From Thermoplasmata archaeon (GTDB lineage: Archaea > Thermoplasmatota > Thermoplasmata > GCA-020350865), in the NCBI GenBank assembly GCA_020348445.1, contig CP070751.1, positions 2,551,447-2,575,446 of the forward strand: 24,000 bases of DNA, in the 5' to 3' direction. The notes under the pieces were generated by a model. The model worked only from the letters and a program-made list of their open reading frames with translations, did no database searches and had not been told where the DNA came from. Below, piece after piece: positions 3,318 to 15,940 of this stretch. How positions within the stretch are numbered: position 1 is the first letter of the stretch; the number at the start of each line of letters is the position of its first letter. The translations under genes were made by a program, and so were the position numbers.

Positions 3318-5453
3318 ATGTCCGAGAACCTAGATGCCATATTCAAACCACGCTCAATAGCGGTTGTAGGCACATCAAGAAAAGAAGGTACCATTGGAAG
3401 GGAGGTACTCCATAACCTAGTGGCCTACGGCTTCAACGGGCCCGTATACCCAGTGAACCCTAAAGCTGAGTATGTCAACAGCATAAAGTGTTACCCCAAT
3501 GTATCCACGATCCCCGACGGAGTGGATTTGACCATCATAGTTATTCCAAAGGAAAATGTCCTCTCCGTTGTTTCCGAATGTGGAGAAAAGGGAGTAAAAG
3601 GCATCGTGGTAATTTCAGCGGGATTCAAGGAGATAGGGGAAAAAGGAATTCAGCTTGAAAAAGAACTTGTAGGTTTGATTAAAAAATATGATATGAGGCT
3701 AGTTGGCCCGAACTGTATGGGCGTAATTAACACAGCCAAGGATATCAGGATGGATGCCACATTTGGATCCACATTACCTCTCGACGGGCATGTGGGTTTC
3801 ATGTCCCAAAGCGGTGCCCTGGGCAACATTATCCTGGAATACGCAGACGAGCTTAAAATCGGATTCTCGAAATTCATCAGCATGGGAAACAAGGCTGATG
3901 TCTCAGGCAATGACATGTTGATGGACCTGGAGAATGATGAAAACACGAACATAATTCTCATGTATTTGGAGAGTTTCGGCAACCCAAGGAAATTCGTTAA
4001 GATTGCAAGGAGGCTGACCAAGAAAAAGCCCGTTATCGCGGTCAAGGCAGGCAGAACCAGGGCAGGGGCAAAAGCCGCCTCTTCCCATACCGGGGCCCTT
4101 GCTGGCTTGGATGTGGCTGTTGATGCACTTTTTGAGCAATGCGGGGTTCTGAGAGCCACCTCAATTGAAGAGCTGTTTGATTATGCGCTGGCCTTTTCCA
4201 ATCAGCCATTACCTGAGGGAAAAAGGGTGGCAATAGTTTCAAATGCAGGTGGGCCAGGTATAATCGCCACTGATGCATGCGTCAGTCTTGGCCTTGATAT
4301 GAGCACATTCGAGGATGAGACATACCAAAAATTGAAAAATGCGCTGCCCGAGGAAGCCAGCACCCAAAATCCTGTTGATATCCTTGGAGATGGAGGGCCA
4401 GAGCGTTACGAGAAGGCCTTGGATGCCGTATTAAAGGATAAGAACGTTGATGCAGTAATTACCATATTTGTACCGCCTTTAATGAGCAGAGCATTGGATG
4501 TCGCATTAGCCATATCAAATGTGAGTGCAAAATATCATAAACCAGTCCTTGGCTGCTTCATGGGTCGAGAGGAGGTGCTCACAAGCATCCAGGAACTTGA
4601 AAAGAACAACATCCCTGCCTACCTTTTCCCCGAATCTGCGGCAAAATCAATAGCAGGCATGTATAAATTCAACGAATACAGACGCAGAAGGGAGGGGGAT
4701 ATTAGGCAGTTTGATGTAGATAAGGAAATGGTCCAAAATATCATCTCGAAGGCAAAAGACGCGGGGAGAACATATCTTTCTCAAAACGAGGTGAAGGAGA
4801 TTTTAATTGCCTATGGATTCAGCTTCCCGCAATCGCAATTGGCGAAAGGTGAGGATGAAGCGGCAAACATCGCAAAGCGTATTGGATTCCCAGTGGCTTT
4901 AAAGATCGCCTCCGATGAAATCATACATAAATCAGATGCCAAAGGCGTGGCTTTAGATCTTAAAGACGAGAAAGAGGTAAGAGAGGGTTATAAGCAAATC
5001 CTCAAGGAGGTGGGACAAACTACTTCTGCAACAAAGATAGATGGCATCGTGGTTCAAGCCATGGTAAAAGGCGGTAAAGAAACGATATTGGGTATGAGTC
5101 TCGATCCCAATTTTGGACCATTGATCATGTTCGGTTTAGGCGGCATATATGTGGAAGTTCTCAAGGATGTGACCTTCAGGATAGCTCCGATTACGGATTT
5201 GGATGCCCAGGAGATGATCAAGAGCATAAAGAGCTATCCTTTGCTCTCAGGAATCAGGGGCGAGGAGCCAGCAGATATCGATTCCATAGAGGAGTATATT
5301 CAAAGACTTTCCAGATTGGTGGAGGATTTCCCAGAGATAGAAGAACTGGATGTCAATCCCCTTGTCGTATTCGAGAAAGGAAGATGCTGTAATGTCGTTG
5401 ACGCCAGGATAAAGATTGGTCCTTCATATGAGCTAAAAAGGTACAAGTTGTGA
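3318..5453 (+). CDS. acd: ADP-forming acetyl-CoA synthetase (acetate--CoA ligase, fused alpha/beta, NDP-forming acyl-CoA synthetase family)
   Basis: N-terminal CoA-binding fold (SIAVVGTSRKEGTIGREV), MSQSGALG, and the phosphohistidine segment AKAASSHTGALAG. The C-terminal ATP-grasp half contains FPVALKIASDEIIHKSDAKGV. At 711 aa it has the typical length of fused archaeal ACD. Confidence 0.85.
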   Translation: MSENLDAIFKPRSIAVVGTSRKEGTIGREVLHNLVAYGFNGPVYPVNPKAEYVNSIKCYPNVSTIPDGVDLTIIVIPKENVLSVVSECGEKGVKGIVVISAGFKEIGEKGIQLEKELVGLIKKYDMRLVGPNCMGVINTAKDIRMDATFGSTLPLDGHVGFMSQSGALGNIILEYADELKIGFSKFISMGNKADVSGNDMLMDLENDENTNIILMYLESFGNPRKFVKIARRLTKKKPVIAVKAGRTRAGAKAASSHTGALAGLDVAVDALFEQCGVLRATSIEELFDYALAFSNQPLPEGKRVAIVSNAGGPGIIATDACVSLGLDMSTFEDETYQKLKNALPEEASTQNPVDILGDGGPERYEKALDAVLKDKNVDAVITIFVPPLMSRALDVALAISNVSAKYHKPVLGCFMGREEVLTSIQELEKNNIPAYLFPESAAKSIAGMYKFNEYRRRREGDIRQFDVDKEMVQNIISKAKDAGRTYLSQNEVKEILIAYGFSFPQSQLAKGEDEAANIAKRIGFPVALKIASDEIIHKSDAKGVALDLKDEKEVREGYKQILKEVGQTTSATKIDGIVVQAMVKGGKETILGMSLDPNFGPLIMFGLGGIYVEVLKDVTFRIAPITDLDAQEMIKSIKSYPLLSGIRGEEPADIDSIEEYIQRLSRLVEDFPEIEELDVNPLVVFEKGRCCNVVDARIKIGPSYELKRYKL

Positions 5454-6546: not shown

Positions 6547-7872
6547 CTATTCCCCTCTCAATTCCTTCATATGCTCGATTCTTTTCTCTATTAACTCCTT
6601 CTTGCCAATGTCGTGCCTCATGAAGACGTTGCCTTTTACATGGGAAAGCGCATTTTCGGCGATTTTCTCTGCATCGAATATACTGTCATCGATGCCCACT
6701 ACAGCCAATGACCGTGAAGAGGTCGTATAGATCTGGTCATCCCTCTGATTCACAGATGCAAAGAAAAGCTCTGCACCGCTATTTTCGATTTCGGCCTCGT
6801 CTACTACCACTTTCTCTCCCACAAGTGATTCTACACCGTAACCCTTTGGAACGATGTACTTGCAGACACTGGCCTTGTTTGCGAACATAGCCTTTTTAGA
6901 CGCCAAATTACCATCGATAATTCCGCTGCAGATTTCTGCAAAGTCCGAGGTCAAAAGCGGAAGGACATTCATGGCCTCTGGGTCCCCGAACCGTGCATTG
7001 CACTCCAGCACCTTTAGTCCTTTGGTTGTGAGGATGAACTGGCCATAGAGGATGCCCTTGTATGGCGTTCCTTCTTCCTTCATGGCATCTATTATGCTCT
7101 GCATTATATCCACGCAATTATCGTATTCCTCTTTTGTCAGAAAGGGTAACAGACCATCTTCCTGAGAATAGGAACCCATACCACCAGTATTGGGCCCGAT
7201 GTCGCCTTCATATGCCCGCTTATGATCTTGCACTGCTGGCATTGGTAACAGGTGGCTTCCATCGCAAAATGCCTGGAGCGTGAGTTCCTCTCCAACCATC
7301 TTCTCCTCGATTACAAAGCTCGATGAGCCCCCAATTTTATTTTCATTGATTTCCCTGCAGTAATCCAAAACACCCTCCATGTTCAACAAATGCTCGCCCA
7401 TGATCTTCACGCCTTTGCCACCAGTAAGACCTATGGGTTTTACCACAACCTCTTTGTTGTAGTCCTTTAAAAATGTCTCTGCCTCTGATACATTATCGAA
7501 AACCCGATAGTCAACCATCCCAGGGAGGTTGTGCTTTGCCATCAAATCCCGCATGTACTGCTTTGATATCTCTATCTGAGATGCGCTCTTGCTCGGACCT
7601 ACACTTGGAATGCCCGATTTCTCAAGTTCATCCACGATTCCCACACCCAAAGGTGCCTCGGGTCCGATAAACGCAAAATCAACCCCCTTGGACTTTGCCC
7701 ATTCTGTAACTTTCTCAACTTCTGTCTCTTTTTCGTACAACGTGTCCTTACTCAGCTTGGCAATACCAGGATTACGGTTCTTCATAACCGAATATATCTC
7801 GGTATTGGATTTTACTAAGGCTTTTACTATCGCATGTTCTCTTGCTCCGCCTCCAACACTTAGAACTTTCAT
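6547..7872 (-). CDS. purD: Phosphoribosylamine--glycine ligase
   Basis: MKVLSVGGGAREHAIVKAL N-terminus and an ATP-grasp core (VVKPIGLTGGKGV, LECNARFGDPE). Length 441 aa. Confidence 0.9.
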   Translation of the reverse strand: MKVLSVGGGAREHAIVKALVKSNTEIYSVMKNRNPGIAKLSKDTLYEKETEVEKVTEWAKSKGVDFAFIGPEAPLGVGIVDELEKSGIPSVGPSKSASQIEISKQYMRDLMAKHNLPGMVDYRVFDNVSEAETFLKDYNKEVVVKPIGLTGGKGVKIMGEHLLNMEGVLDYCREINENKIGGSSSFVIEEKMVGEELTLQAFCDGSHLLPMPAVQDHKRAYEGDIGPNTGGMGSYSQEDGLLPFLTKEEYDNCVDIMQSIIDAMKEEGTPYKGILYGQFILTTKGLKVLECNARFGDPEAMNVLPLLTSDFAEICSGIIDGNLASKKAMFANKASVCKYIVPKGYGVESLVGEKVVVDEAEIENSGAELFFASVNQRDDQIYTTSSRSLAVVGIDDSIFDAEKIAENALSHVKGNVFMRHDIGKKELIEKRIEHMKELRGE

Positions 7873-8026: not shown

Positions 8027-9028
8027 ATGGAAAATAAAACACAGATGGGATTGTTATTGATTATAATAGGCATGTTGCTCGCCATCTTTTCAACTCTGGG
8101 AAGCATCGCAGCATCCAGTTTGGGAGGTTCAGGCCTTTCACCGGGGGCGCTAATACCAGGAATCCTGGGTTTCTTTGCTTTCATTCTCATGCTGGCAGGA
8201 TGGATCCTCATGATCACTGGTAGGAGGGAGTTCGGTGATAAACACTCCCAATTTGTTGTTTACTCAATAATTGCCCTTATAATTGGTTTTTTTATAGTGA
8301 TAGTTGGATCGATGATATCTGCATTTGCTGGAATCTCAAGCGGTGTGGAGAACGGAGAGGCAGAAGTCACATTTGATTACATTGCCATGGCCAAAGCCAT
8401 GAAGACAGGGATGATCATTTCATTTGTAGGTAGTTTATTGATTACCATTGGGTCAATTTTACTTGTATACAATCTCGAGAATGACATTGGTAAGAAAGTC
8501 CTCTATATCGCTTTCATCGTTTCAATTGTAGTCTCGATAGCGGTGATTATTTATACCCTACCATTATTAGATGACCTAGCCGAAAAACTGGAAGGTACGC
8601 CAGAAGATGATCGAGAGGACGAATTCTACGAAGGTATTGGTGACATCAGTTTGATAGAGGGCCTAGGTGTTATAGGCTCAGTAATTCTTTTAATTGGATA
8701 TTTCATCCCTTATAATCGTATAAAGAAAGGGGAGTTAGAACCTGTCCCACCGCCCACCGACACCCAAGGAATGCCTCCATATCCATCGTACCCATACCAA
8801 CCATATCCGCCTTATCAACCATCCCCAGGACAGCCCCCTGGTGCCCCCGTGGAAGGTGAGCCAAAACCCGATGGAGAGGTTACACAGCCTGAGCCCACCC
8901 CTGATGGTGCAGTACAACCAAAAGCCGTTACGCCGGAGCCGATAGAGACAAAGTATTGCAGATTTTGTGGAACTCAGATTCCAATGGAAAGCACTGTATG
9001 TCCTGTTTGTAATAAAACTCTGACATAA
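8027..9028 (+). CDS. Multi-pass membrane protein with a Pro/Tyr-rich linker and C-terminal zinc ribbon
   Basis: About 6 hydrophobic helices, then PPPTDTQGMPPYPSYPYQPYPPYQPSPGQPPGAP..., then CRFCGTQIPMESTVCPVC (CxxC-x12-CxxC). GAGGGA Shine-Dalgarno-like element at 8016-8021, 6 nt before the ATG. Confidence 0.6.
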   Translation: MENKTQMGLLLIIIGMLLAIFSTLGSIAASSLGGSGLSPGALIPGILGFFAFILMLAGWILMITGRREFGDKHSQFVVYSIIALIIGFFIVIVGSMISAFAGISSGVENGEAEVTFDYIAMAKAMKTGMIISFVGSLLITIGSILLVYNLENDIGKKVLYIAFIVSIVVSIAVIIYTLPLLDDLAEKLEGTPEDDREDEFYEGIGDISLIEGLGVIGSVILLIGYFIPYNRIKKGELEPVPPPTDTQGMPPYPSYPYQPYPPYQPSPGQPPGAPVEGEPKPDGEVTQPEPTPDGAVQPKAVTPEPIETKYCRFCGTQIPMESTVCPVCNKTLT

Positions 9029-9062
9029 AGCATTACCGAATGCAAACATAAAATAACATAGG

Positions 9063-9195
9063 GCGGGGGAAGGGTGTGTCCGAGATTAAGATTAAAGTTG
9101 AATAATAACATAACTCGGACACACAGCCATTTTGTGGTGTCTGAGCTTAAGACAAAATTGATGTATTAGTATAACTTGAACACAAGTCCCCCGCA
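9063..9195 (-). pseudogene. tRNA-Leu-derived relic / tRNA-like element sharing both acceptor strands with the adjacent tRNA-Leu
   Basis: 9063-9074 gcgggggaaggg is identical to 9225-9236 (acceptor 3' strand plus T-stem 3' strand). 9188-9195 cccccgca is identical to 9343-9350 (acceptor 5' strand). The interior is three hairpins, including a perfect 11-bp inverted repeat at 9074-9084/9114-9124. There is no T-loop or anticodon-loop consensus. Confidence 0.4.
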
Positions 9196-9223
9196 TCGCA
9201 TTCAATTTAAAAATAATTTAAGG

Positions 9224-9349
9224 TGCGGGGGAAGGGATTCGAACCCTTGAACCACTTCTGGACAGGATGTCCAAACAAGGCGCGTAAATTGAACCCTTAC
9301 ACCTAGGATCTTAAGTCCTGCGCCGTTGGCCATGCTTGGCTACCCCCGC
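9224..9349 (-). tRNA. tRNA-Leu (anticodon UAA) with a 41-nt intron at position 37/38
   Basis: Reverse complement: GCGGGGG TA GCCAAGCATGGCCAACGGC G CAGGA CTTAAG[intron ATCCTAGG...TTTGGAC]A TCCTG, long variable arm, AAGGG TTCGAAT CCCTT CCCCCGC A. Perfect 7-bp acceptor, class II D-arm, discriminator A73. Mature length 85 nt. CCA is not encoded. Confidence 0.8.
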
Positions 9350-9367
9350 ATTTAAGCGGATTCCACC

Positions 9368-9478
9368 TGAGGGGGTAGCCAAGTTCACTTCCCAAGGAAA
9401 CCAAAGCATTTATCATCGAATTGTGGTTTCCTGGGCACAGAGGGGTCTGAAGGACAACTCTAGTGGGCTACCCCTGCA
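9368..9478. repeat. Inverted pair of tRNA-Leu 5'-end copies forming a long composite hairpin
   Basis: 9368-9384 (+) tgagggggtagccaagt matches the tRNA-Leu 5' end tgcgggggtagccaagc at 15/17. 9462-9478 read on the minus strand, tgcaggggtagcccact, matches at 13/17. Because they face each other, 9372-9380 pairs with 9466-9474 (9 bp). This encloses a 12-bp bulged hairpin (9391-9403 / 9424-9435). Confidence 0.5.
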
Positions 9479-9696: not shown

Positions 9697-10446
9697 GTGG
9701 CGTATCAAACCTATGAAAAGAGGCTACTTAAGGAGGTCCAAGAGGGACCTATCCCAAAACACATAGCCATTATAATGGACGGCAACAGGAGGTTTGCCAG
9801 GGAATTGGGTATTGAACCAACAGATGGGCATCTTAAGGGTAAGGATAAACTGGAGGAGGTAACTGATTGGTGCCTGGAAGTAGGGGTTAAGATCCTCACT
9901 GTATTTGCATTCTCCACAGAGAATCTGAAGAGAAAGACCCAGGAAATAGACAAGCTAATGGCGCTATTTACAGAAAATTTTCGAAGGGCCGGTGATGATG
10001 AAAGGGCTCATAAACATGGAATAAGAGTGAGAGCCTTGGGACAGAGGAACCTATTACCAAAAGAGGTCCAGGATGCCATAGCCTATGCCGAGGAAAAAAC
10101 AAAGGATTACGATAATTACTTCTTCAATATCGCCGTGGCCTACGGTAGCAGGGAGGAGATATTAAGGGCCATCAAAAACATTGCAGATGATGTAAAGAAC
10201 GGAAACCTGAATTCCGATGATATTGATGAGAAGGTATTTTCTTCTTATCTTTATACAGCTGATCTACCAGACCCTGATCTTGTGCTTCGGACATCTGGTG
10301 AGGAGAGGGTATCAAACTTCCTTTTATGGCAGTTGGCATACTCAGAACTGTATTTTGCTGACATATACTGGCCTGGATTTAGAAAAGTAGAGTTTCTTAG
10401 GGCGATTAGATCTTACCAGAAGAGACAGAGAAGATTTGGTACGTAA
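9697..10446 (+). CDS. uppS: cis-prenyltransferase (undecaprenyl-diphosphate synthase family)
   Basis: HIAIIMDGNRRFA, FAFSTENLKR and RTSGEERVSNFLLWQLAYSELYF motifs. The start is GTG at 9697, with no in-frame ATG upstream. Confidence 0.9.
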   Translation: MAYQTYEKRLLKEVQEGPIPKHIAIIMDGNRRFARELGIEPTDGHLKGKDKLEEVTDWCLEVGVKILTVFAFSTENLKRKTQEIDKLMALFTENFRRAGDDERAHKHGIRVRALGQRNLLPKEVQDAIAYAEEKTKDYDNYFFNIAVAYGSREEILRAIKNIADDVKNGNLNSDDIDEKVFSSYLYTADLPDPDLVLRTSGEERVSNFLLWQLAYSELYFADIYWPGFRKVEFLRAIRSYQKRQRRFGT

Positions 10447-10475
10447 ATTGTCCATCAATTTTCATCCCATGACAG

Positions 10476-10484
10476 TTTTTTTTT
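10476..10484 (+). terminator. Oligo-T terminator candidate after uppS, in a convergent gap
   Basis: T9 run 30 nt after the uppS stop. On the other strand it reads as A9. Confidence 0.35.
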
Positions 10485-10521
10485 ATCTTTGTCAATCGCA
10501 ATATCCCAAAATATGGAGTTT

Positions 10522-12606
10522 CTAACTCACGATCTGGAAAAGATTCCTTTTCAAAAAATTTCCAAGATCTTTTTGACAATACCCGCATTCTGTAATTCCC
10601 TCCTCTATTGAATTGTGTAAACAATGTACGTGATAAGGCTTTTTGCATTGAATGCAGGGCATCTCGCAAAGGTCCTTGGTTTCCACAACAGGTTGCGTTA
10701 AAAGAGGAAGGCCACATACTGGACATTCTTTTTGACCGCATATTAAACATTTGAACAAGGATGTATTCCATAAAGATAAAGAAAGCCTATTTATTGCATC
10801 AACTAAAAACATACTGGGGGCCCAAGATTTCAATATATCAGTAAAAAAGGCTTTTACAGATTCCTTAAGTTCTAGATCACCAATATCGACTAAAATCTCG
10901 GGGGGAACAAGTGGGTAGGCCTGTGGGACCTTGATATTTAACTGGATCCGTTTAATTTTGGGTGCTGCTTCCCCTAAAATATCTCCCGTAGACGAGGGAA
11001 CTGGTATTGTAACCTTATATCCACCATCCACTACCTCAAAATCTTCAGTAACCAATCTCAGTAGTAATTCTTCGAACTCTCTTCTATATATATTATTTAT
11101 GACCTGGGAGAGGTTCCGAAGAACATCCATTATCCTCTTTTGCGGTTTCTTGGGCCATTTTTTGATTCCCTCCAGTTCCTCTATATCCAAGCCTTTCAGT
11201 TCTTTAGGTAAAGTTACCACAGGGGGAGAGGGGTATCCTCTTAAATCCATATCGATATCGATAAATTTCGGTCCATATGTTGATATCCTTATAAGGAACC
11301 TGTTCTTGCTCAATCTTTCGGCTCGATACTCCCTTTTGATGACCTCGAATTCACTTTCTATCATGGAATCCTCCACCAGCCTAACCTCTATACCCTGTAG
11401 AATATCCACGAGATTAGGTGTAAACACATCCTCCCAGTGCTTCAATTTCTTGAAGATTTCTTCAATACCGCGGATCCTGATCAACAGATCATCAGTGAAG
11501 GTTATGGATGGTTTTTTCGGGAACTCCTTATAATTTATGGTAACGGGATAGATGTTGTAAATCCCAGCATCCAGACATGAAAGGTAGACTACTACATGAT
11601 ACATTTTATCTCCGACCAACTCCAAAGAGAAATTGTTGGAAAGGTCCAGATACTGCGAAATCGCCTCCTCGTTCTCGAAGGAATCTTCAGTGGCTTCTGC
11701 ATCTGGTATCTCAAAATCGTAAGATGGCTCAATTTCAAAAAATGTTTCAGGAAGAACCTCCTTTACCTCAAACACCTCTTCTGAATCGATATCTGAGGAT
11801 TGTGGAGTTACCTCGATAAATTCCCCCTCAGGTAGAACCTCGACAACCTCTTCATTTTTCTCTTCACTTGACTTTTTACCATTTTCAATTTCCTTTACCT
11901 CGGATTGCTTATCCTCCCTCTCAGGATCTTCTTCCTTTATTTCTTCAGATGGTTTTATCCTGGATTGTATATTATAAAGCACATCCACAAGTCTTGGAGG
12001 GGACTTGGGATCCCAGTTGTTCAGATTTTCAAGCAATTCATCTAAACCGTCGATATTCACAAGGAGCTCATCAGTAAAGGAGAAGGTTGGCTTTTTTGGG
12101 TAATATTCAAAATCTATATTGACAAAGTACTGCTCACCGTCTGGCGAGTTTAAAAACACCGAGATGTCCCTGATGCTGCCGTCGATTAAAGCCAAAGAGA
12201 ATTCATCACTTAATTCAAGATACTGGTTGTAGATCTCTTCAGGTATCAGGCTGACCTCTACAGCGGTCTCTTTACCAGGCTCGAGATCTAAAGGAACGGG
12301 AATGTAGCAATGGGGGCATATTCTCTCTGCACCGTCGACACCAGATATGGCATTAAAATACTGCTCGATGCAACCCTTATGGAAGGCCACACCGCATATA
12401 TGTTCGTAATCGGCACCACCCCGCCTGCAGATAGCACATTCTTTTGTTTTTTGCACAACAGTTCTTAGTTTGTGCTGGAATCCGGATTCCACGTCCTTTT
12501 CTGATGATCGAGAAAATTTATTTTTTGGTACCCATATGGGAATCATAGGTATAAGAAATGACAAAGCGCAAATTTTTTTAGATAACAAGGATGGGAAACC
12601 TATCAT
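10522..12606 (-). CDS. Putative ubiquitin E3 / scaffold: RING-like finger, four tandem RWD/UEV-like (inactive E2-fold) modules, second RING-like finger
   Basis: The N-terminal finger has 8 ligands: C57-x2-C60-x8-H69-x-C71-x4-H76-x2-C79-x17-C97-x2-C100, with the RING-H2-like core CGVAFHKGCIEQY. Four repeats each carry the UBC/RWD hallmark YPxxP(P): EYYPKKPTFSF, KEFPKKPSITF, RGYPSPPVVTL, QAYPLVPPEIL. None has an HPN motif or a Cys at the catalytic position. The C-terminal finger is C628-x2-C631-x19-C651-x2-C654-x4-H659-x2-C662-x11-C674-x2-C677, with additional Cys at 620, 623 and 647. Lies on the same strand, 114 nt downstream of the Ubl-E1-E2-JAMM genes. Confidence 0.7.
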   Translation of the reverse strand: MIGFPSLLSKKICALSFLIPMIPIWVPKNKFSRSSEKDVESGFQHKLRTVVQKTKECAICRRGGADYEHICGVAFHKGCIEQYFNAISGVDGAERICPHCYIPVPLDLEPGKETAVEVSLIPEEIYNQYLELSDEFSLALIDGSIRDISVFLNSPDGEQYFVNIDFEYYPKKPTFSFTDELLVNIDGLDELLENLNNWDPKSPPRLVDVLYNIQSRIKPSEEIKEEDPEREDKQSEVKEIENGKKSSEEKNEEVVEVLPEGEFIEVTPQSSDIDSEEVFEVKEVLPETFFEIEPSYDFEIPDAEATEDSFENEEAISQYLDLSNNFSLELVGDKMYHVVVYLSCLDAGIYNIYPVTINYKEFPKKPSITFTDDLLIRIRGIEEIFKKLKHWEDVFTPNLVDILQGIEVRLVEDSMIESEFEVIKREYRAERLSKNRFLIRISTYGPKFIDIDMDLRGYPSPPVVTLPKELKGLDIEELEGIKKWPKKPQKRIMDVLRNLSQVINNIYRREFEELLLRLVTEDFEVVDGGYKVTIPVPSSTGDILGEAAPKIKRIQLNIKVPQAYPLVPPEILVDIGDLELKESVKAFFTDILKSWAPSMFLVDAINRLSLSLWNTSLFKCLICGQKECPVCGLPLLTQPVVETKDLCEMPCIQCKKPYHVHCLHNSIEEGITECGYCQKDLGNFLKRNLFQIVS
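10576..10749 (-). other. C-terminal RING-like zinc finger with an extra Cys pair (aa 620-677)
   Basis: CLICGQKECPVCGLPLLTQPVVETKDLCEMPCIQCKKPYHVHCLHNSIEEGITECGYC. It has the same pair2-x4-pair3 spacing (C-x2-C-x4-H-x2-C) as the N-terminal finger. Confidence 0.5.
10771..12246 (-). other. Array of four RWD/UEV-like E2-fold modules (aa 121-215, 311-410, 413-507, 508-612), with an acidic linker at aa 216-310
   Basis: Modules 1 and 2 align at roughly 40% identity by eye (EEIYNQYLELSDEFSLALIDG...YYPKKPTFSFTDELLVNIDGLDELLENLNNWDP..LVDVL versus EEAISQYLDLSNNFSLELVGD...EFPKKPSITFTDDLLIRIRGIEEIFKKLKHWED..LVDIL). Modules 3 and 4 keep the helix-strands-YPxxPP-helix layout. Confidence 0.5.
12307..12438 (-). 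other. N-terminal RING-like cross-brace zinc finger (aa 57-100 of the 694-aa protein)
   Basis: CAICRRGGADYEHICGVAFHKGCIEQYFNAISGVDGAERICPHC: four ligand pairs (C,C / H,C / H,C / C,C) with spacings compatible with RING/PHD. Confidence 0.55.
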
Positions 12607-12720: not shown

Positions 12721-13926
12721 TCAAAGTTCTATCCCGCAGTTTGCGCAGCTTGAATCACCTGGCATTATGGAATCATATCCACAGAATTCGCATTTAGCGG
12801 CTTTCTTGCGCTTTTCCTTCTTATGATCCTTTTTTAGCTTATCAATTGCCTTGTCCGTGGATTTTTGGTGCGACTCCAGTTTAATGCCCACAGATTGCAT
12901 ATCTTTTTGTATCTTCTGGACGAACTTACCCATTTCATCGATGGTCTTCTCCAGATTCTCCACCTTTTCAGTTAAAACGTGTTTCGGCCTCGCGTATTCC
13001 TCCTTGTACTCAAGAACCAATGGATAGCCCTCAGCAAGAAGCATTGTAGCTTCCACCATACAATCCAATACATCCTGTATGATATGCTCTACCTCAACAT
13101 TCTCTATCTCGACAAACTCCGATTTCTCCCCCAACTCAGGTGATTTTAACCTGAAAATCTTCAGATATTCATTGAGTTGAATTCCTTCTTTGAATTTAGA
13201 TGGATCAAAGACTATTGCCACGGCTTTGGGATTCAAGGATTGGTAGCCAGAGTGATTGACCCTGTCCACAGGGGATAAAAACAGCCCATGGCCTGGGTGC
13301 GTGTGATACCATCCAACAATCCAGTTTTCATCTGTCAGGTCTTGGTTTATCTCGTCGGCTTTGGCATAGTGCTCATTTTGGAATTCTACCTCAACCAAAC
13401 TACCGTGAACAATGGGAATTGCATCCATTATCTGTACTTTGGAATCGTCCACATTCCCAACGAGAAATCCCATGCATTCCACCCAATCCTTTCGTGGTGC
13501 CTTGGGATTGGAAAACCTCATTCCATGCCTAAGCACTTTGTTCAAGGCCCTATAACTGATTAAAACCTTTTCCTTTTCTTTTGGGGGGATCTCCTCCTTT
13601 TCCTCTAATGCCCCTTTCATAGCAACTTCTTGTATATCAGTTTCAGCCAGTTCATCAAGCTCTGATAGATAATCGTCTATTTCTTTCTCTTTCTTTTCCT
13701 CCATTTCCTTGGGCCTTTGCTCGATTTTCTCTTCTTTCTTTTCCTCGATTTCTTTGGGCTCTTTTTCTATCTCTTCCTCAATTTCCCTGGGTTCTTTTTC
13801 TATTTCTTCCCTCAATTGGGAGGACTCCTTTTTGAGCTTCCTTTTAGATTTCTTTCTTTTGACCTTAATCCTCTTTTTCTTAGGCATAATTCTGTGTCCA
13901 CTCCTTGGCCTTATTATCGAATTCAT
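12721..13926 (-). CDS. JAMM/MPN+ metalloisopeptidase (Rpn11/CSN5-like deubiquitinase) with a polybasic/EK-repeat N-terminus, coiled-coil region and C-terminal zinc ribbon
   Basis: Complete JAMM motif: E150 (WVECMGFLVG) and H208-T-H210-P-G-H-G-L-F-L-S218-P-V-D221 (codons 13264-13305). C-terminal ribbon CEFCG-x12-CANCG (12739-12792). An alternative start at M14 (ATG 13887) would overlap the E2 stop by 8 nt; the listed start overlaps E2 by 47 nt. Confidence 0.85.
   Translation of the reverse strand: MNSIIRPRSGHRIMPKKKRIKVKRKKSKRKLKKESSQLREEIEKEPREIEEEIEKEPKEIEEKKEEKIEQRPKEMEEKKEKEIDDYLSELDELAETDIQEVAMKGALEEKEEIPPKEKEKVLISYRALNKVLRHGMRFSNPKAPRKDWVECMGFLVGNVDDSKVQIMDAIPIVHGSLVEVEFQNEHYAKADEINQDLTDENWIVGWYHTHPGHGLFLSPVDRVNHSGYQSLNPKAVAIVFDPSKFKEGIQLNEYLKIFRLKSPELGEKSEFVEIENVEVEHIIQDVLDCMVEATMLLAEGYPLVLEYKEEYARPKHVLTEKVENLEKTIDEMGKFVQKIQKDMQSVGIKLESHQKSTDKAIDKLKKDHKKEKRKKAAKCEFCGYDSIMPGDSSCANCGIEL
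13699..13808 (-). repeat. Imperfect 33-nt tandem repeat encoding EEIEKEP(R/K)EIE units in the JAMM N-terminal region
   Basis: 13743-13775 versus 13776-13808 are 28/33 identical. A third, more degenerate unit lies at about 13699-13734. The protein reads EIEKEPREIEE-EIEKEPKEIEE-KKEEKIEQRPKEMEE. Confidence 0.6.
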
Positions 13927-14416
13927 CTTTATTGTATTTATACTGGGCTCCAGCCTCTCTGTTTAGGGGATCGTCCGGATTGAAGAAAGGAGGATAGCAA
14001 TGTATCATGAGTTTCAGACATTCAATGAGCATGGACAAATCTTTTGTGGGTGTCCATCCCATGGTTTTACTCTCGGGATCCACCTTCCCTATCCTGTCCG
14101 GGTTAATGATATCAAAACATACATTGTCCTTCCAAAAGCTCTGTGTCGGAGGGGCTCTGTTGATGTCTATATTGGGATGCCATATTCTGGTATGGCAGAA
14201 CACGCCTGGTGGATAGAACGGGTAATTGTTGAAGGTCTTGATCTCGAAAACGAACCTTCCGTCTTCATAGGGTGTTTCCTCTGCGCCATAAATCGTAACC
14301 TTCAAATGACCAACGAAAGACGCCCCAGGCCAAAGCTCTATTATAACGTATCTATCATTCTGAAAGCGTTGCAAGGCTTCAAAATAATCCCTCTCTATGC
14401 GCTCGAAATCCGCCAA
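13880..14416 (-). CDS. Ubiquitin-conjugating enzyme E2 (UBC fold, catalytically competent)
   Basis: YPFYPPGVFCHTRIWHPNI (YPxxPP plus the HPN triad at aa 80-82). Catalytic Cys100 in NVCFDII (codon 14117-14119). WTPTKDLSMLIECLKLMI and NPDDPL helix motifs are present. The start codon is TTG at 14416, 2 nt after the E1 stop, with GGAGGG 7-8 nt upstream inside the E1 3' end. Confidence 0.85.
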   Translation of the reverse strand: MADFERIERDYFEALQRFQNDRYVIIELWPGASFVGHLKVTIYGAEETPYEDGRFVFEIKTFNNYPFYPPGVFCHTRIWHPNIDINRAPPTQSFWKDNVCFDIINPDRIGKVDPESKTMGWTPTKDLSMLIECLKLMIHCYPPFFNPDDPLNREAGAQYKYNKDEFDNKAKEWTQNYA

Positions 14417-14418
14417 TA

Positions 14419-15654
14419 CTAGCCCTCCATCTCAATAATGAACTCAGCTTGTTCTCGCTTCAGTTTGCCGTTTTCATCGACAGATGTGTATGTGGCTCTG
14501 AGTATATCACGATTTTGGATTGGTAGATCAGACAATCTACTTCCCATGATGTCTTGGCCGGGAGCTGCGATCACTGATCCATCTATGATCTTGGTGATCA
14601 AGACCGTCTCTTTCAAATCCACTCCTTCTTTTTTAAGCGATGATAACATATCAGCAAAAGTAGAATCACTCTTCATTTTAAGGCTCAATTTCACCCTTTC
14701 CTTTCCGCATACAGCACAATTCTCATCCTTGGAGATTTCCACAGGGGTGAATATCCCGTAAGAAGAGCTATATTCAAGATATGAGGGTGACATTATCTCA
14801 CCAATATTAAGGCCCGAAAGGCGGTGAAGGATTTTCAGCACCTCATGGGAGACTATAGCCGATATGACCGCATTGACAGTCAATATGGAAGGGATTTTGT
14901 TCTCTATTATATTCTCCACCTCATGGGGCATGAATTCTTCGGCCTTCGTATGCGGGGATTCCTTTGAAAGCCTGGATGCGATTTTCGCAATCATATCAAG
15001 TTCCTTGTCTGAATATTCTTTATGAATACCATGCTCTTTTACGAACTCGTCCTCAGCCTTGAGTATACACTGCTCCCGGCTTCGGGGTTCGCCTGGGATA
15101 GAACAAGCAACGTACACCTTTTCATCTGCTGGAGGTATGGGAAAGAAGCATCGAAGACAGGGAGTTGCATCTTTTAAGAGAGGATCACCTTCCGGGATTA
15201 TCACCTGGACATTTCCCTTGAAACCAGTTGCAGCTCCATCAACATATGGCTTGCACAATTCATGTGCCAACCTGTTTAAAGCGAACCTTGCGGAAAAAGA
15301 GTCCAGGCCTCCTGCAATGAGATCCACACCCTCGAATACACTCATTGGTAAATCTTGAAATTTTTGGGTATAGGTTTCGATACTAACATCCGGATTTAGA
15401 ATCTTCAGTTTTTCTTTGGCTACCTCAGCTTTGAGTCTGCCTCTATCATTGTCAGTAAAAAGCATCTGCCTCGAAAGGTTCGAGGTCTCGATAGTATCCA
15501 TGTCTATCAAAATTAGATTCCCAACACCCACTAAAGCAAGGTTCTTTGCAATCTCACAACCCAATGCCCCTATACCAACGATTAGCACATGGGAAGAAGA
15601 AATGACGTCTTGGTCCCAACCCTCAAGGGAAAGATGTCTGGCATACCTTGCCAT
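14419..15654 (-). CDS. Ubiquitin-activating enzyme E1 (compact ThiF/MoeB-fold adenylation domain with catalytic-Cys insertion and C-terminal UFD-like domain)
   Basis: RYARHLSL...VLIVGIGALGCEIAKNL (GxGxxG), TSNLSRQ and DSFSAR adenylation motifs. Two CxxC pairs (CLRC, CAVC). Catalytic segment VACSIPGEPRSREQCI resembles the eukaryotic UBA3-type PMCTIASMPRLPEHCI (Cys codon 15103-15105). The last ~90 aa are beta-grasp-like. I prefer the start at MARYARH (15654), 10 nt after the Ubl stop. The ORF-track start at 15741 would overlap the Ubl gene by 77 nt. Confidence 0.85.
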   Translation of the reverse strand: MARYARHLSLEGWDQDVISSSHVLIVGIGALGCEIAKNLALVGVGNLILIDMDTIETSNLSRQMLFTDNDRGRLKAEVAKEKLKILNPDVSIETYTQKFQDLPMSVFEGVDLIAGGLDSFSARFALNRLAHELCKPYVDGAATGFKGNVQVIIPEGDPLLKDATPCLRCFFPIPPADEKVYVACSIPGEPRSREQCILKAEDEFVKEHGIHKEYSDKELDMIAKIASRLSKESPHTKAEEFMPHEVENIIENKIPSILTVNAVISAIVSHEVLKILHRLSGLNIGEIMSPSYLEYSSSYGIFTPVEISKDENCAVCGKERVKLSLKMKSDSTFADMLSSLKKEGVDLKETVLITKIIDGSVIAAPGQDIMGSRLSDLPIQNRDILRATYTSVDENGKLKREQAEFIIEMEG

Positions 15655-15664
15655 ATCTTTTTTA

Positions 15665-15940
15665 TCACTGGAAAATCCAACCACCCGCTTGTTGAGTAAT
15701 GATGGTAATGGTATCCTTTTCAGGTTTGTGGCCCAGATCATTCAACTTCTTTGAAAACACATCATTATCGGAAATGGGCTGGCCCTTATAGATTAGCTGA
15801 ATCACCAAAGCCTGGTGAATCTTATAGGCATTTCTTAGGAGGTTCTTTGTGTCCTTGCATGATGCTTCCTTCGGCACGTTTACAGATTTCGTGCCCTGGT
15901 TTGGCGGCAAACCCATCATCCTAAACTTGTATCTTGGCAT
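15665..15940 (-). CDS. Ubiquitin-like beta-grasp modifier precursor (C-terminal GG followed by the 4-residue propeptide WIFQ)
   Basis: 91 aa. ...LIYKGQPISDNDVFSKKLNDLGHKPEKDTITIITQQAGG-WIFQ parallels ubiquitin [34 protein letters not shown]. GG codons at 15680-15685. AGGTGA Shine-Dalgarno element at 15945-15950, 4 nt before the ATG. First gene of the cassette. Confidence 0.75.
   Translation of the reverse strand: MPRYKFRMMGLPPNQGTKSVNVPKEASCKDTKNLLRNAYKIHQALVIQLIYKGQPISDNDVFSKKLNDLGHKPEKDTITIITQQAGGWIFQ

What the first reader, a model, noticed from the sequence alone, without database searches (positions are those of the whole stretch)
15665..15940. Ubiquitin-like modifier is encoded as a precursor: GG is followed by WIFQ
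The diglycine (codons 15680-15685) is not C-terminal; four more residues (WIFQ, 15668-15679) precede the stop. As with eukaryotic ubiquitin precursors, activation would require endoproteolytic exposure of GG. The only obvious candidate protease is the JAMM enzyme three genes downstream. The protein also has a longer beta1-beta2 loop (GLPPNQGTKSVNVPKE) than ubiquitin, and 11 lysines available for chain formation.
Basis: partly seen in the sequence, partly recalled or inferred. Interest (0 to 1): 0.6.

Follow-up and report, generated by a model that had tools for sequence, protein, structure and literature searches.

The report
Archaeal ubiquitin-like precursor with removable tail
An archaeon encodes a ubiquitin-like protein whose reactive Gly-Gly end is capped by four extra residues, most likely clipped off by the metalloprotease in the same operon; this maturation step is already proven in another archaeon, so the case is a new example and not a new mechanism.

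Summary
The minus-strand ORF 15665-15940 encodes a 91-residue beta-grasp protein ending ...TQQAGG-WIFQ-stop. It is the first gene of a Ubl, E1, E2, Rpn11-like JAMM, RING/RWD operon, and all catalytic motifs are intact.

Comparative data support a discarded propeptide:
- GG is invariant.
- The last 13 mature residues are 99% conserved within the genus, while tail positions 3-4 are 18% conserved.
- Two lineages changed the Trp codon to a stop (TGG to TAG, TGG to TGA), so they encode the mature form directly.
- In the wider family, which is centred on Asgard archaea, GG is followed by nothing, by 1-3 mostly hydrophobic residues, or by long fusions.

Exactly this mechanism has been shown biochemically for Caldiarchaeum subterraneum (PMC5654768, PMC6043591). 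There the JAMM cleaves after GG, the pro-form is refractory to E1, and the GG form is active.

- The genome holds four other MPN/JAMM genes and a second Ubl cluster with its own precursor (GG-KDE).
- The beta1-beta2 loop is about 8 residues, not 16.

One real difference is a bulky Trp-Ile directly after GG, which blocked cleavage in the Caldiarchaeum enzyme.

Verdict: new member of a known kind, with modest interest. Earlier scan notes on this same window already list the cassette.

The parts
15665..15940 (-). Pro-form of a ubiquitin-like modifier, 91 aa (mature part residues 1-87)
   Evidence: Translation. AlphaFold beta-grasp model, pLDDT 86. Foldseek top hits are ubiquitin, SUMO2 and CsUb. 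Pfam ubiquitin is hit only below threshold, 16.9 bits against 25.4.
15680..15685 (-). Gly86-Gly87 codons, the predicted mature C-terminus and conjugation end
   Evidence: Invariant in 10 close orthologs and in a 16-member alignment of the wider family.
15668..15679 (-). Propeptide Trp-Ile-Phe-Gln
   Evidence: Disordered in the model, pLDDT below 50. Positions 3-4 are 18% conserved against 83% for the mature part. The Trp codon is a stop in two lineages.
15662..15667 (-). Tandem stops TGA TAA. The E1 start follows 7 nt further on, in another frame.
   Evidence: Sequence. This excludes read-through or fusion to E1.
14419..15654 (-). E1-like activating enzyme, 411 aa
   Evidence: Pfam ThiF 1.9e-58. 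Best solved relatives are Uba1, UBA7 and UBA3. GxGxxG at 27, CxxC at 166 and 313, Cys184 in the ACSIPGEPR segment.
13880..14416 (-). E2 conjugating enzyme, 178 aa
   Evidence: Pfam UQ_con 2.6e-22. Best solved relatives are UBE2T and UBE2D. HPN at 80 and Cys100.
12721..13887 (-). Rpn11-like JAMM metalloprotease, 388 aa from the ATG at 13887 (the longest ORF starts at 13926). It is the candidate maturase and deconjugase.
   Evidence: Pfam JAB 9.3e-15. Yeast Rpn11 4.6e-15 and CsRpn11 8e-13. Motif E..HTHPGHGLFLSPVD, invariant in 25 homologs. Model core pLDDT above 90, Foldseek top hit Rpn11 with TM 0.71-0.78. The start at 13887 overlaps the E2 stop by 8 nt, as in ortholog L011.
10522..12606 (-). 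694-aa protein with RING-like fingers at both ends and RWD-like modules, the probable E3
   Evidence: Weak Pfam RWD and zf-RING_2 hits. CxxC pairs at 57, 97, 620, 628, 651 and 674. Not studied further here.

Best explanation
The gene encodes an inactive pro-form of a ubiquitin-like modifier. The proposed pathway is:
1. The four residues after Gly87 block the carboxylate that the E1 must adenylate.
2. The operon's own Rpn11-like zinc metalloprotease (12721-13887) cuts the Gly87-Trp88 peptide bond.
3. The GG-ended form is then adenylated and thioesterified by the E1 (Cys184), passed to the E2 (Cys100), and ligated to lysines with the help of the RING/RWD protein.
4. The same JAMM later removes the modifier from targets.

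Shown here: the anatomy, the fold, the intact catalytic motifs, and an evolutionary pattern in which GG is fixed and the tail is free and dispensable.
For: - Sequence and operon.
- Ubiquitin fold with a disordered tail.
- GG is invariant.
- Within the genus the last 13 mature residues are 98.7% identical and tail positions 3-4 are 18% identical.
- The Trp codon became TAG in one lineage and TGA in another. The old tail codons are still visible downstream, and the E1, E2 and JAMM genes are retained.
- Of 50 family members, 12 end at GG, 15 have short unrelated tails and 8 have long fusions.
- Of 30 Asgard homologs, 8 end at GG and 22 carry 1-3 residues.
- The JAMM site is intact and invariant, and the enzyme is closest to Rpn11 and CsRpn11 by sequence and fold.
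- No C48, OTU, USP or UCH protease was detected in the genome.
- Precedent: CsRpn11 cleaves pro-CsUb exactly after GG. The pro-form is refractory to E1, while the cleaved or stop-truncated form is active (PMC5654768; PMC6043591).
Against: - No cleavage, transcript or proteomic data exist for this protein.
- The residues after the scissile bond are bulky (Trp, Ile). In CsRpn11, Cys79Glu at P1' and Gly80Trp at P2' abolished processing (PMC6043591), so this JAMM would need a roomier primed side.
- The genome has four other MPN/JAMM genes.
- The searches for cysteine deubiquitinase families had no positive control and cannot prove absence.
Confidence: 0.75

Rival explanations
1. The tail is removed, but by a different protease. 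Candidates are one of the four other MPN/JAMM proteins of the genome (for example the 144-aa Prok-JAB type at C1:768595 or the JAMM of the second Ubl cluster), or an unrelated endo- or carboxypeptidase. In that case the operon JAMM serves only to deconjugate.
For: - Five MPN genes exist in the genome.
- The tail-less lineages still keep the operon JAMM, so its retention does not depend on precursor processing.
- Bulky P1'/P2' residues blocked the Caldiarchaeum enzyme.
Against: - In Caldiarchaeum the Rpn11 homolog and the SAMP-type JAMM each cut only their own precursor (PMC6043591).
- The second cluster has its own precursor (VGG-KDE). Its Ubl is only 22% identical over 69 aligned residues to this one and its JAMM core is 32% identical.
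- Gene linkage favours the operon enzyme.
Confidence: 0.15
2. The tail is more than a disposable cap. A hydrophobic residue directly after GG is selected in this family as a maturation gate or as a recognition element for the primed side of the JAMM, so the rate of Ubl activation is controlled by processing.
For: - 21 of 22 tails in Asgard homologs begin with I, V, F or L, and 18 of 30 proteins stop after exactly one such residue.
- Trp or Leu followed by Ile is kept in all 10 tailed orthologs of the 12 distinct within-genus sequences.
- In CsUb a Trp at P3' speeded cleavage.
Against: - Tail-less variants arose twice in this genus, and 8 of 30 Asgard proteins have no tail.
- Within the genus, 90% identity at tail positions 1-2 is not clearly above the 83% background of the mature part.
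- The species sampled are related, so the counts are not independent.
Confidence: 0.25
3. The protein is never processed or conjugated. It would be a stand-alone ubiquitin-fold domain acting non-covalently, or a sulfur carrier of the ThiS/MoaD/SAMP kind.
For: - The Pfam ubiquitin score is below threshold.
- The E1 also scores against ThiF/MoeB models.
Against: - There is no ThiS or MoaD match.
- An E2, a RING protein and a deubiquitinase-type JAMM are co-encoded.
- The E1 is closest to Uba1, UBA7 and UBA3, well ahead of MoeB.
- GG is invariant and lineages end exactly at GG.
Confidence: 0.03

Closest known systems
Caldiarchaeum subterraneum pro-ubiquitin (CsUb, GG + CGEPIRRAA) and its Rpn11-like JAMM (PMC5654768, PMC6043591; PDB 6fnn, 6fju, 6fjv)
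   Same: - Archaeal beta-grasp modifier made as a GG-plus-tail precursor.
- Encoded with an E1, an E2, a RING E3 and an Rpn11-like JAMM.
- The JAMM core matches by sequence (8e-13) and by fold (TM 0.69).
- The Ubl model matches CsUb (6fnn_C).
   Different: - The tail is 4 residues, not 9, and starts with bulky Trp-Ile. CsRpn11 did not tolerate bulky P1'/P2' residues.
- The JAMM here lies inside the operon. It carries a long charged N-terminal helix and a C-terminal coiled coil plus zinc ribbon.
- The E3 is a 694-aa double-RING/RWD protein instead of a small RING protein.
- The host is labelled Thermoplasmata, not Aigarchaeota.
- The Ubl sequence family is different: the CsUb chain was not among the sequence hits at E up to 1.
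Ubiquitin-like proteins of Asgard archaea (Promethearchaeota) ending ...DVITVMATQAGG
   Same: - Same sequence family. The profile scores 1e-38 to 1e-44 in about 50 of 251 sampled genomes.
- Same conserved G-x-P-P loop and Q-A-G-G end.
- Same habit of a short tail after GG that begins with a hydrophobic residue.
- The nearest relatives of the E1 (55%) and the JAMM (41-48%) outside the clade are also Asgard.
   Different: - In the Asgard loci examined the Ubl gene stands alone. An E1 was nearby in only 1 of 31 loci. Here it heads a five-gene operon.
- Asgard tails are mostly one residue; here the tail is four.
Eukaryotic ubiquitin, SUMO and NEDD8 precursors
   Same: - GG is followed by a short variable tail that must be removed before E1 activation.
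- The C-terminal segment resembles SUMO2/3 (DTITIITQQAGG against DTIDVFQQQTGG).
   Different: - Eukaryotic precursors are matured by cysteine proteases (UCH, USP, SENP). No such family was detected in this genome. The available enzyme is a JAMM metalloprotease.
- The similarity to SUMO is weak: E = 7e-4 only for a tandem construct, and 0.2-1 for single chains.
Haloarchaeal SAMP and JAMM (desampylase) systems
   Same: A ubiquitin-fold modifier plus an E1 plus a JAMM protease in an archaeon.
   Different: - SAMP systems work without an E2 or E3, whereas this operon has both.
- NCBIfam desampylase scores 15.9 bits against a cut-off of 130, and the SAMP E1 scores 117 against 450.

Membership tests
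Archaeal eukaryote-type ubiquitin system with JAMM-matured pro-ubiquitin (Caldiarchaeum type) | Modifier has the ubiquitin beta-grasp fold | tested here: met
   AlphaFold pLDDT 86 with strand and helix order beta-beta-alpha-beta-beta-alpha-beta. Foldseek: ubiquitin TM 0.76-0.80 and CsUb 6fnn_C TM 0.67.
Archaeal eukaryote-type ubiquitin system with JAMM-matured pro-ubiquitin (Caldiarchaeum type) | Gly-Gly followed by extra residues before the stop | tested here: met
   GG86-87 followed by WIFQ and then TGA TAA.
Archaeal eukaryote-type ubiquitin system with JAMM-matured pro-ubiquitin (Caldiarchaeum type) | Gene linkage with E1, E2, RING-type E3 and an Rpn11-like JAMM | tested here: met
   Five consecutive minus-strand genes. 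The same order is found in orthologous loci L011, L080 and L082.
Archaeal eukaryote-type ubiquitin system with JAMM-matured pro-ubiquitin (Caldiarchaeum type) | JAMM with an intact E...HxHx7SxxD site, closer to Rpn11 than to prokaryotic JAB proteins | tested here: met
   Motif present and invariant in 25 homologs. PF01398 scores 54.9 bits against 25.7 for Prok-JAB. Rpn11 is the top hit by sequence and by fold.
Archaeal eukaryote-type ubiquitin system with JAMM-matured pro-ubiquitin (Caldiarchaeum type) | JAMM cleaves the precursor exactly after GG | not testable with these tools
   This needs biochemistry. Only single chains can be folded here, so no complex model was made.
Archaeal eukaryote-type ubiquitin system with JAMM-matured pro-ubiquitin (Caldiarchaeum type) | Pro-form is refractory to E1 and the GG form is activated | not testable with these tools
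   Shown only for Caldiarchaeum (PMC5654768). Natural stop-after-GG variants are consistent with it.
Archaeal eukaryote-type ubiquitin system with JAMM-matured pro-ubiquitin (Caldiarchaeum type) | Sterically small residues just after the scissile bond, as CsRpn11 requires | tested here: not met
   P1' is Trp and P2' is Ile. Cys79Glu and Gly80Trp blocked CsRpn11 (PMC6043591). This is a difference in detail and not in kind.
Pfam ubiquitin family PF00240 | Score at or above the gathering threshold | tested here: not met
   16.9 bits against 25.4. Membership rests on fold, not on the Pfam model.
ThiS/MoaD/SAMP sulfur-carrier type modifiers | Match to ThiS or MoaD models, and a system that lacks an E2 | tested here: not met
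   No such Pfam or NCBIfam hit for the Ubl. An E2 is present.
SUMO | Significant sequence match to SUMO, and a Ulp/SENP (C48) protease | tested here: not met
   Only a weak C-terminal match. No PF02902 hit in the genome.
Bacterial defence-associated Ubl systems (Bil, CBASS Cap2/Cap3 type) | Matches to defence-system models for the Ubl, E2 and JAB proteins | tested here: not met
   PADLOC gave only generic adenylation-domain hits for the E1 and weak JAB hits, and nothing for the Ubl, E2 or E3. The neighbouring genes are housekeeping genes.

The most novel reading that the evidence does not exclude
The residue directly after GG is a selected feature and not junk. This Asgard-centred Ubl family keeps a hydrophobic residue (I, V, F, L, or W here) as a one-to-four-residue cap. 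The cap would gate activation and be read by the primed side of an Rpn11-like JAMM, a specificity opposite to that measured for the Caldiarchaeum enzyme. In addition, the complete cascade in this Thermoplasmata-labelled genus would be a transfer from Asgard archaea.
Probability: 0.25. Interest if true: 0.45.

Novelty: new member of a known kind. Interest (0 to 1): 0.3.

Why it matters
The finding extends JAMM-matured pro-ubiquitin beyond Caldiarchaeum to a second archaeal lineage, a genus labelled Thermoplasmata with genomes of up to 5 Mb, and to the Ubl family that dominates in Asgard archaea. The natural stop-after-GG variants are ready-made controls. The bulky Trp-Ile after the scissile bond offers a simple way to ask how the primed-side specificity of Rpn11-like enzymes differs between lineages. 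The finding does not change the current picture of how archaeal ubiquitin-like modifiers are activated.

Tried and rejected
- Assembly or frameshift artefact: rejected. 12 distinct orthologs from independent samples keep the frame and a 4-5 residue tail.
- Read-through or fusion to the E1: rejected. There are tandem stops TGA TAA, and the E1 start is in another frame.
- Tail codons conserved because they hold the E1 ribosome-binding site: no Shine-Dalgarno-like sequence lies at a useful distance.
- A 5-bp hairpin at the E1 start is not kept in ortholog L011.
- SUMO membership: only a weak C-terminal resemblance and no Ulp protease.
- Anti-phage defence system: no specific PADLOC match.
- Sulfur-carrier reading: no ThiS or MoaD match, and an E2 is present.
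- Bacterial promoter and terminator scan: uninformative for an archaeon.
- Model of the JAMM-Ubl complex: not possible, because only single window-encoded chains can be folded.
- Fusion partners of the family: long family members gave no Pfam domain other than ubiquitin, apart from one Hint-like module.

Full report
**Observation.** The minus-strand ORF 15665-15940 reads MPRYKFRMMGLPPNQ...TITIITQQAGG-WIFQ, 91 residues.
- Gly86-Gly87 are encoded at 15680-15685 and the four extra residues at 15668-15679.
- The stop TGA (15665-15667) is followed at once by an in-frame TAA.
- A GGTGA ribosome-binding site lies 4 nt before the ATG.

**The gene is real.**
- Twelve distinct orthologous sequences from independent metagenomes and genomes keep the frame.
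- AlphaFold2 on a 10-sequence alignment gives a confident model, mean pLDDT 86 and pTM 0.73. Its elements are strand 3-8, helical turn 13-16, strand 17-21, helix 28-39, strand 45-51, helix 62-68 and strand 77-84. Only the last residues (87-91) are disordered.
- Foldseek places it among ubiquitin (TM 0.76-0.80), SUMO2/3, ISG15 and the Caldiarchaeum ubiquitin of entry 6fnn.
- By sequence it is a divergent ubiquitin. Pfam PF00240 scores 16.9 bits, below the 25.4 cut-off.
- The beta1-beta2 connection is residues 9-16, which is 8 residues against the 2-4 residue turn of ubiquitin (my knowledge of 1UBQ).
- This G-L/V-P-P-x-Q loop is among the best conserved parts of the family.

**Context.** The Ubl opens a run of five minus-strand genes.
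- E1 (14419-15654): Pfam ThiF 1.9e-58.
- E2 (13880-14416): UQ_con 2.6e-22.
- MPN/JAMM protein (12721-13926 as the longest ORF): JAB 9.3e-15.
- A 694-residue protein (10522-12606) with weak RING and RWD matches.

The catalytic equipment is complete.
- E1 has GIGALG at 27, CxxC at 166 and 313, and Cys184.
- E2 has HPN at 80 and Cys100.
- The JAMM has Glu150 and HTHPGHGLFLSPVD at 208-221 in 401-aa numbering.

The JAMM most likely starts at the ATG at 13887, giving 388 aa. That start overlaps the E2 stop by 8 nt, exactly as in ortholog L011.

Against solved structures the parts look eukaryote-like.
- The E1 is closest to Uba1, UBA7 and UBA3 (9e-37 to 1e-32), well ahead of MoeB at 1e-23.
- The E2 is closest to UBE2T and UBE2D.
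- The JAMM is closest to yeast Rpn11 (4.6e-15), then human PSMD14, then the Caldiarchaeum Rpn11 homolog at 8e-13.
- A model of the JAMM built on 25 homologs has a core with pLDDT above 90. Its best structural matches are Rpn11 (TM 0.71-0.78) and CsRpn11 (TM 0.69).
- The five catalytic residues are invariant in those 25 homologs.

The neighbouring genes are archaeal housekeeping genes: PheRS beta, a KaiC-like ATPase and a UPP synthase. PADLOC gives no specific defence-system match.

**Comparison within the genus.**
- Mean pairwise identity is 83% over the mature part and 98.7% over its last 13 residues.
- It is 90% at tail positions 1-2 (Trp or Leu, then Ile) and only 18% at tail positions 3-4. 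Those read FQ, FS, LR, RV, SA, FK(N), KA, RA and FK, plus FP in one further locus (L080) outside that set.
- Two lineages have no tail. A DNA alignment shows why. In L008/L009/L014 the Trp codon TGG has become TAG, with the old ATT TTC CAG TGA still readable behind it. In the more distant L010 it has become TGA.
- The TAG lineage keeps E1, E2 and the start of the JAMM gene. L010, a 1.2-kb contig, shows only the start of the following gene.
- The tail can therefore be lost without loss of the system, as expected of a propeptide that is thrown away.

**Comparison across the wider family.**
- An exhaustive profile search of 1.84 billion representatives found only 41 relatives.
- Of the 50 family members then in hand, 35 have GG at the aligned position. 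Of these, 12 end there, 15 carry 1-11 unrelated residues and 8 continue into long extensions.
- A broader profile showed that the family is centred on Asgard archaea. 81 of 251 sampled genomes of the phylum of a Promethearchaeota MAG have a match, about 50 of them at 1e-38 to 1e-44.
- Thirty stand-alone Asgard proteins all end DVITVMATQAGG. After that, 8 have nothing, 18 have one residue, 3 have two and 1 has three. The first tail residue is I in 14, V in 3, F in 3, L in 1 and E in 1.
- A short, mostly hydrophobic cap after an invariant GG is therefore the family's habit. WIFQ is a long version of it.

**Who cuts.**
- The operon JAMM is the natural candidate, but it is not the only MPN protein in the genome. 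Searches of the 5.16-Mb single-contig genome found five.
- One of them lies in a second, unrelated Ubl cluster about 410 kb away. That cluster has its own precursor (83 aa...DIVGG-KDE), a Ubl-E2 fusion, a Ubl-E1 fusion and a 428-aa JAMM with Ig-like domains.
- The two JAMM cores are 32% identical and the two Ubls 22% over 69 aligned residues.
- No C48, OTU, USP or UCH family protease was detected. Three of these four searches had no positive control, so they do not prove absence.

**Literature.** The proposed mechanism is already established in a homologous system.
- In Caldiarchaeum subterraneum the ubiquitin is made with nine residues after GG, and the adjacent Rpn11 homolog removes them exactly.
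- The full-length form is refractory to the E1. The cleaved form, or a stop-after-GG form, is activated and conjugated (PMC5654768).
- CsRpn11 cuts only its own precursor and the SAMP-type JAMM only its own (PMC6043591).
- One result from that work does not transfer directly. Bulky substitutions right after the scissile bond (Cys79Glu, Gly80Trp) abolished cleavage, whereas Glu81Trp speeded it. Here P1' is Trp and P2' is Ile, and the Asgard relatives also place a bulky hydrophobic residue at P1'. The primed-side pocket of this JAMM lineage must therefore differ, or another enzyme does the trimming.

**Host and distribution.**
- The closest E1 and JAMM relatives (54-83% identity) come from records labelled Thermoplasmata or Methanomassiliicoccales archaeon, including closed chromosomes of 3.2 and 4.2 Mb. 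The next tier (41-55%) is Helarchaeota and Promethearchaeota.
- Among 41 related genomes the Ubl was found in all five species of the window's genus. It was not found in the 36 other genomes of the same order or class that were searched.
- E2-fold genes as such are common in the phylum, in 95 of 401 sampled genomes. Thermoplasmatota E2s are mentioned in the literature (bioRxiv 10.1101/2023.07.25.550441).
- An exchange of this cassette with Asgard archaea is likely. No tree was built, so the direction is open.

**Verdict.**
- It is a new member of a known kind.
- What is new in detail: the natural nonsense variants that encode the mature form, the family-wide hydrophobic cap, the bulky P1'/P2' pair, and the presence of two precursor-plus-JAMM systems in one genome.

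Noticed in passing
L007 (G000:C1:2146000-2164000), about 410 kb from the window: A second, unrelated Ubl cluster in the same genome. It holds an 83-aa Ubl ending VGG-KDE (L007:7838-8089, minus strand), a 428-aa JAMM with Ig-like domains (8128-9414), a Ubl-E2 fusion (9839-10528), a Ubl-E1 fusion (6830-7798) and a further ThiF protein (4519-5301). It is also a precursor-plus-JAMM pair.
   Followed up: partly
P0027: A family member in which GG is followed directly by Cys and a Hint/intein-like module (GG|CFSGDTYVMM...). The Pfam Hint hit is 2.8e-5, below threshold. This suggests self-cleaving, possibly E1-independent, release or activation of the Ubl. The protein is truncated at both ends.
   Followed up: partly
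L042-L072 (Asgard genomes): The window's Ubl belongs to a family centred on Asgard archaea. Thirty stand-alone genes end DVITVMATQAGG plus 0-3 residues, and the first tail residue is I, V, F or L in 21 of 22. These genes are not next to E1, E2 or JAMM genes (1 of 31 loci).
   Followed up: yes
L043 (G431:C132) and several contigs of G569: Ubl domains of this family are embedded in very long open frames (about 620 to 2226 aa) in some Asgard genomes. One has GGG followed by hundreds of residues.
   Followed up: no
L079 (CP070672.1, 4.2-Mb chromosome labelled Thermoplasmata archaeon): A relative whose E1-E2-JAMM run has no Ubl gene in front. Its E1 is called as two genes (324 + 146 aa), so this may be a decaying or rearranged copy.
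   Followed up: no
window 13880-13926: The JAMM gene most likely starts at the ATG at 13887, overlapping the E2 stop by 8 nt (ATGCCTAA) as in ortholog L011, and not at the upstream ATG at 13926.
   Followed up: yes
window 15686-15721: The C-terminal segment DTITIITQQAGG resembles SUMO2/3 (DTIDVFQQQTGG) more than ubiquitin (LRLRGG). It is the best PDB sequence hit but weak, E = 7e-4 for a tandem construct. No Ulp-type protease was found in the genome.
   Followed up: partly
L017 (Promethearchaeota MAG JBHLME010000098.1): The nearest E1 outside the clade (55% identity, 530 aa) sits about 1.3 kb from an E2 that is clearly similar to the window's E2. This fits an Asgard link for the whole cassette.
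   Followed up: partly
phylum-wide search: E2-fold (UQ_con) genes above the Pfam threshold occur in 95 of 401 sampled genomes of the window's phylum. One genome has 7 copies and another has 5.
   Followed up: no
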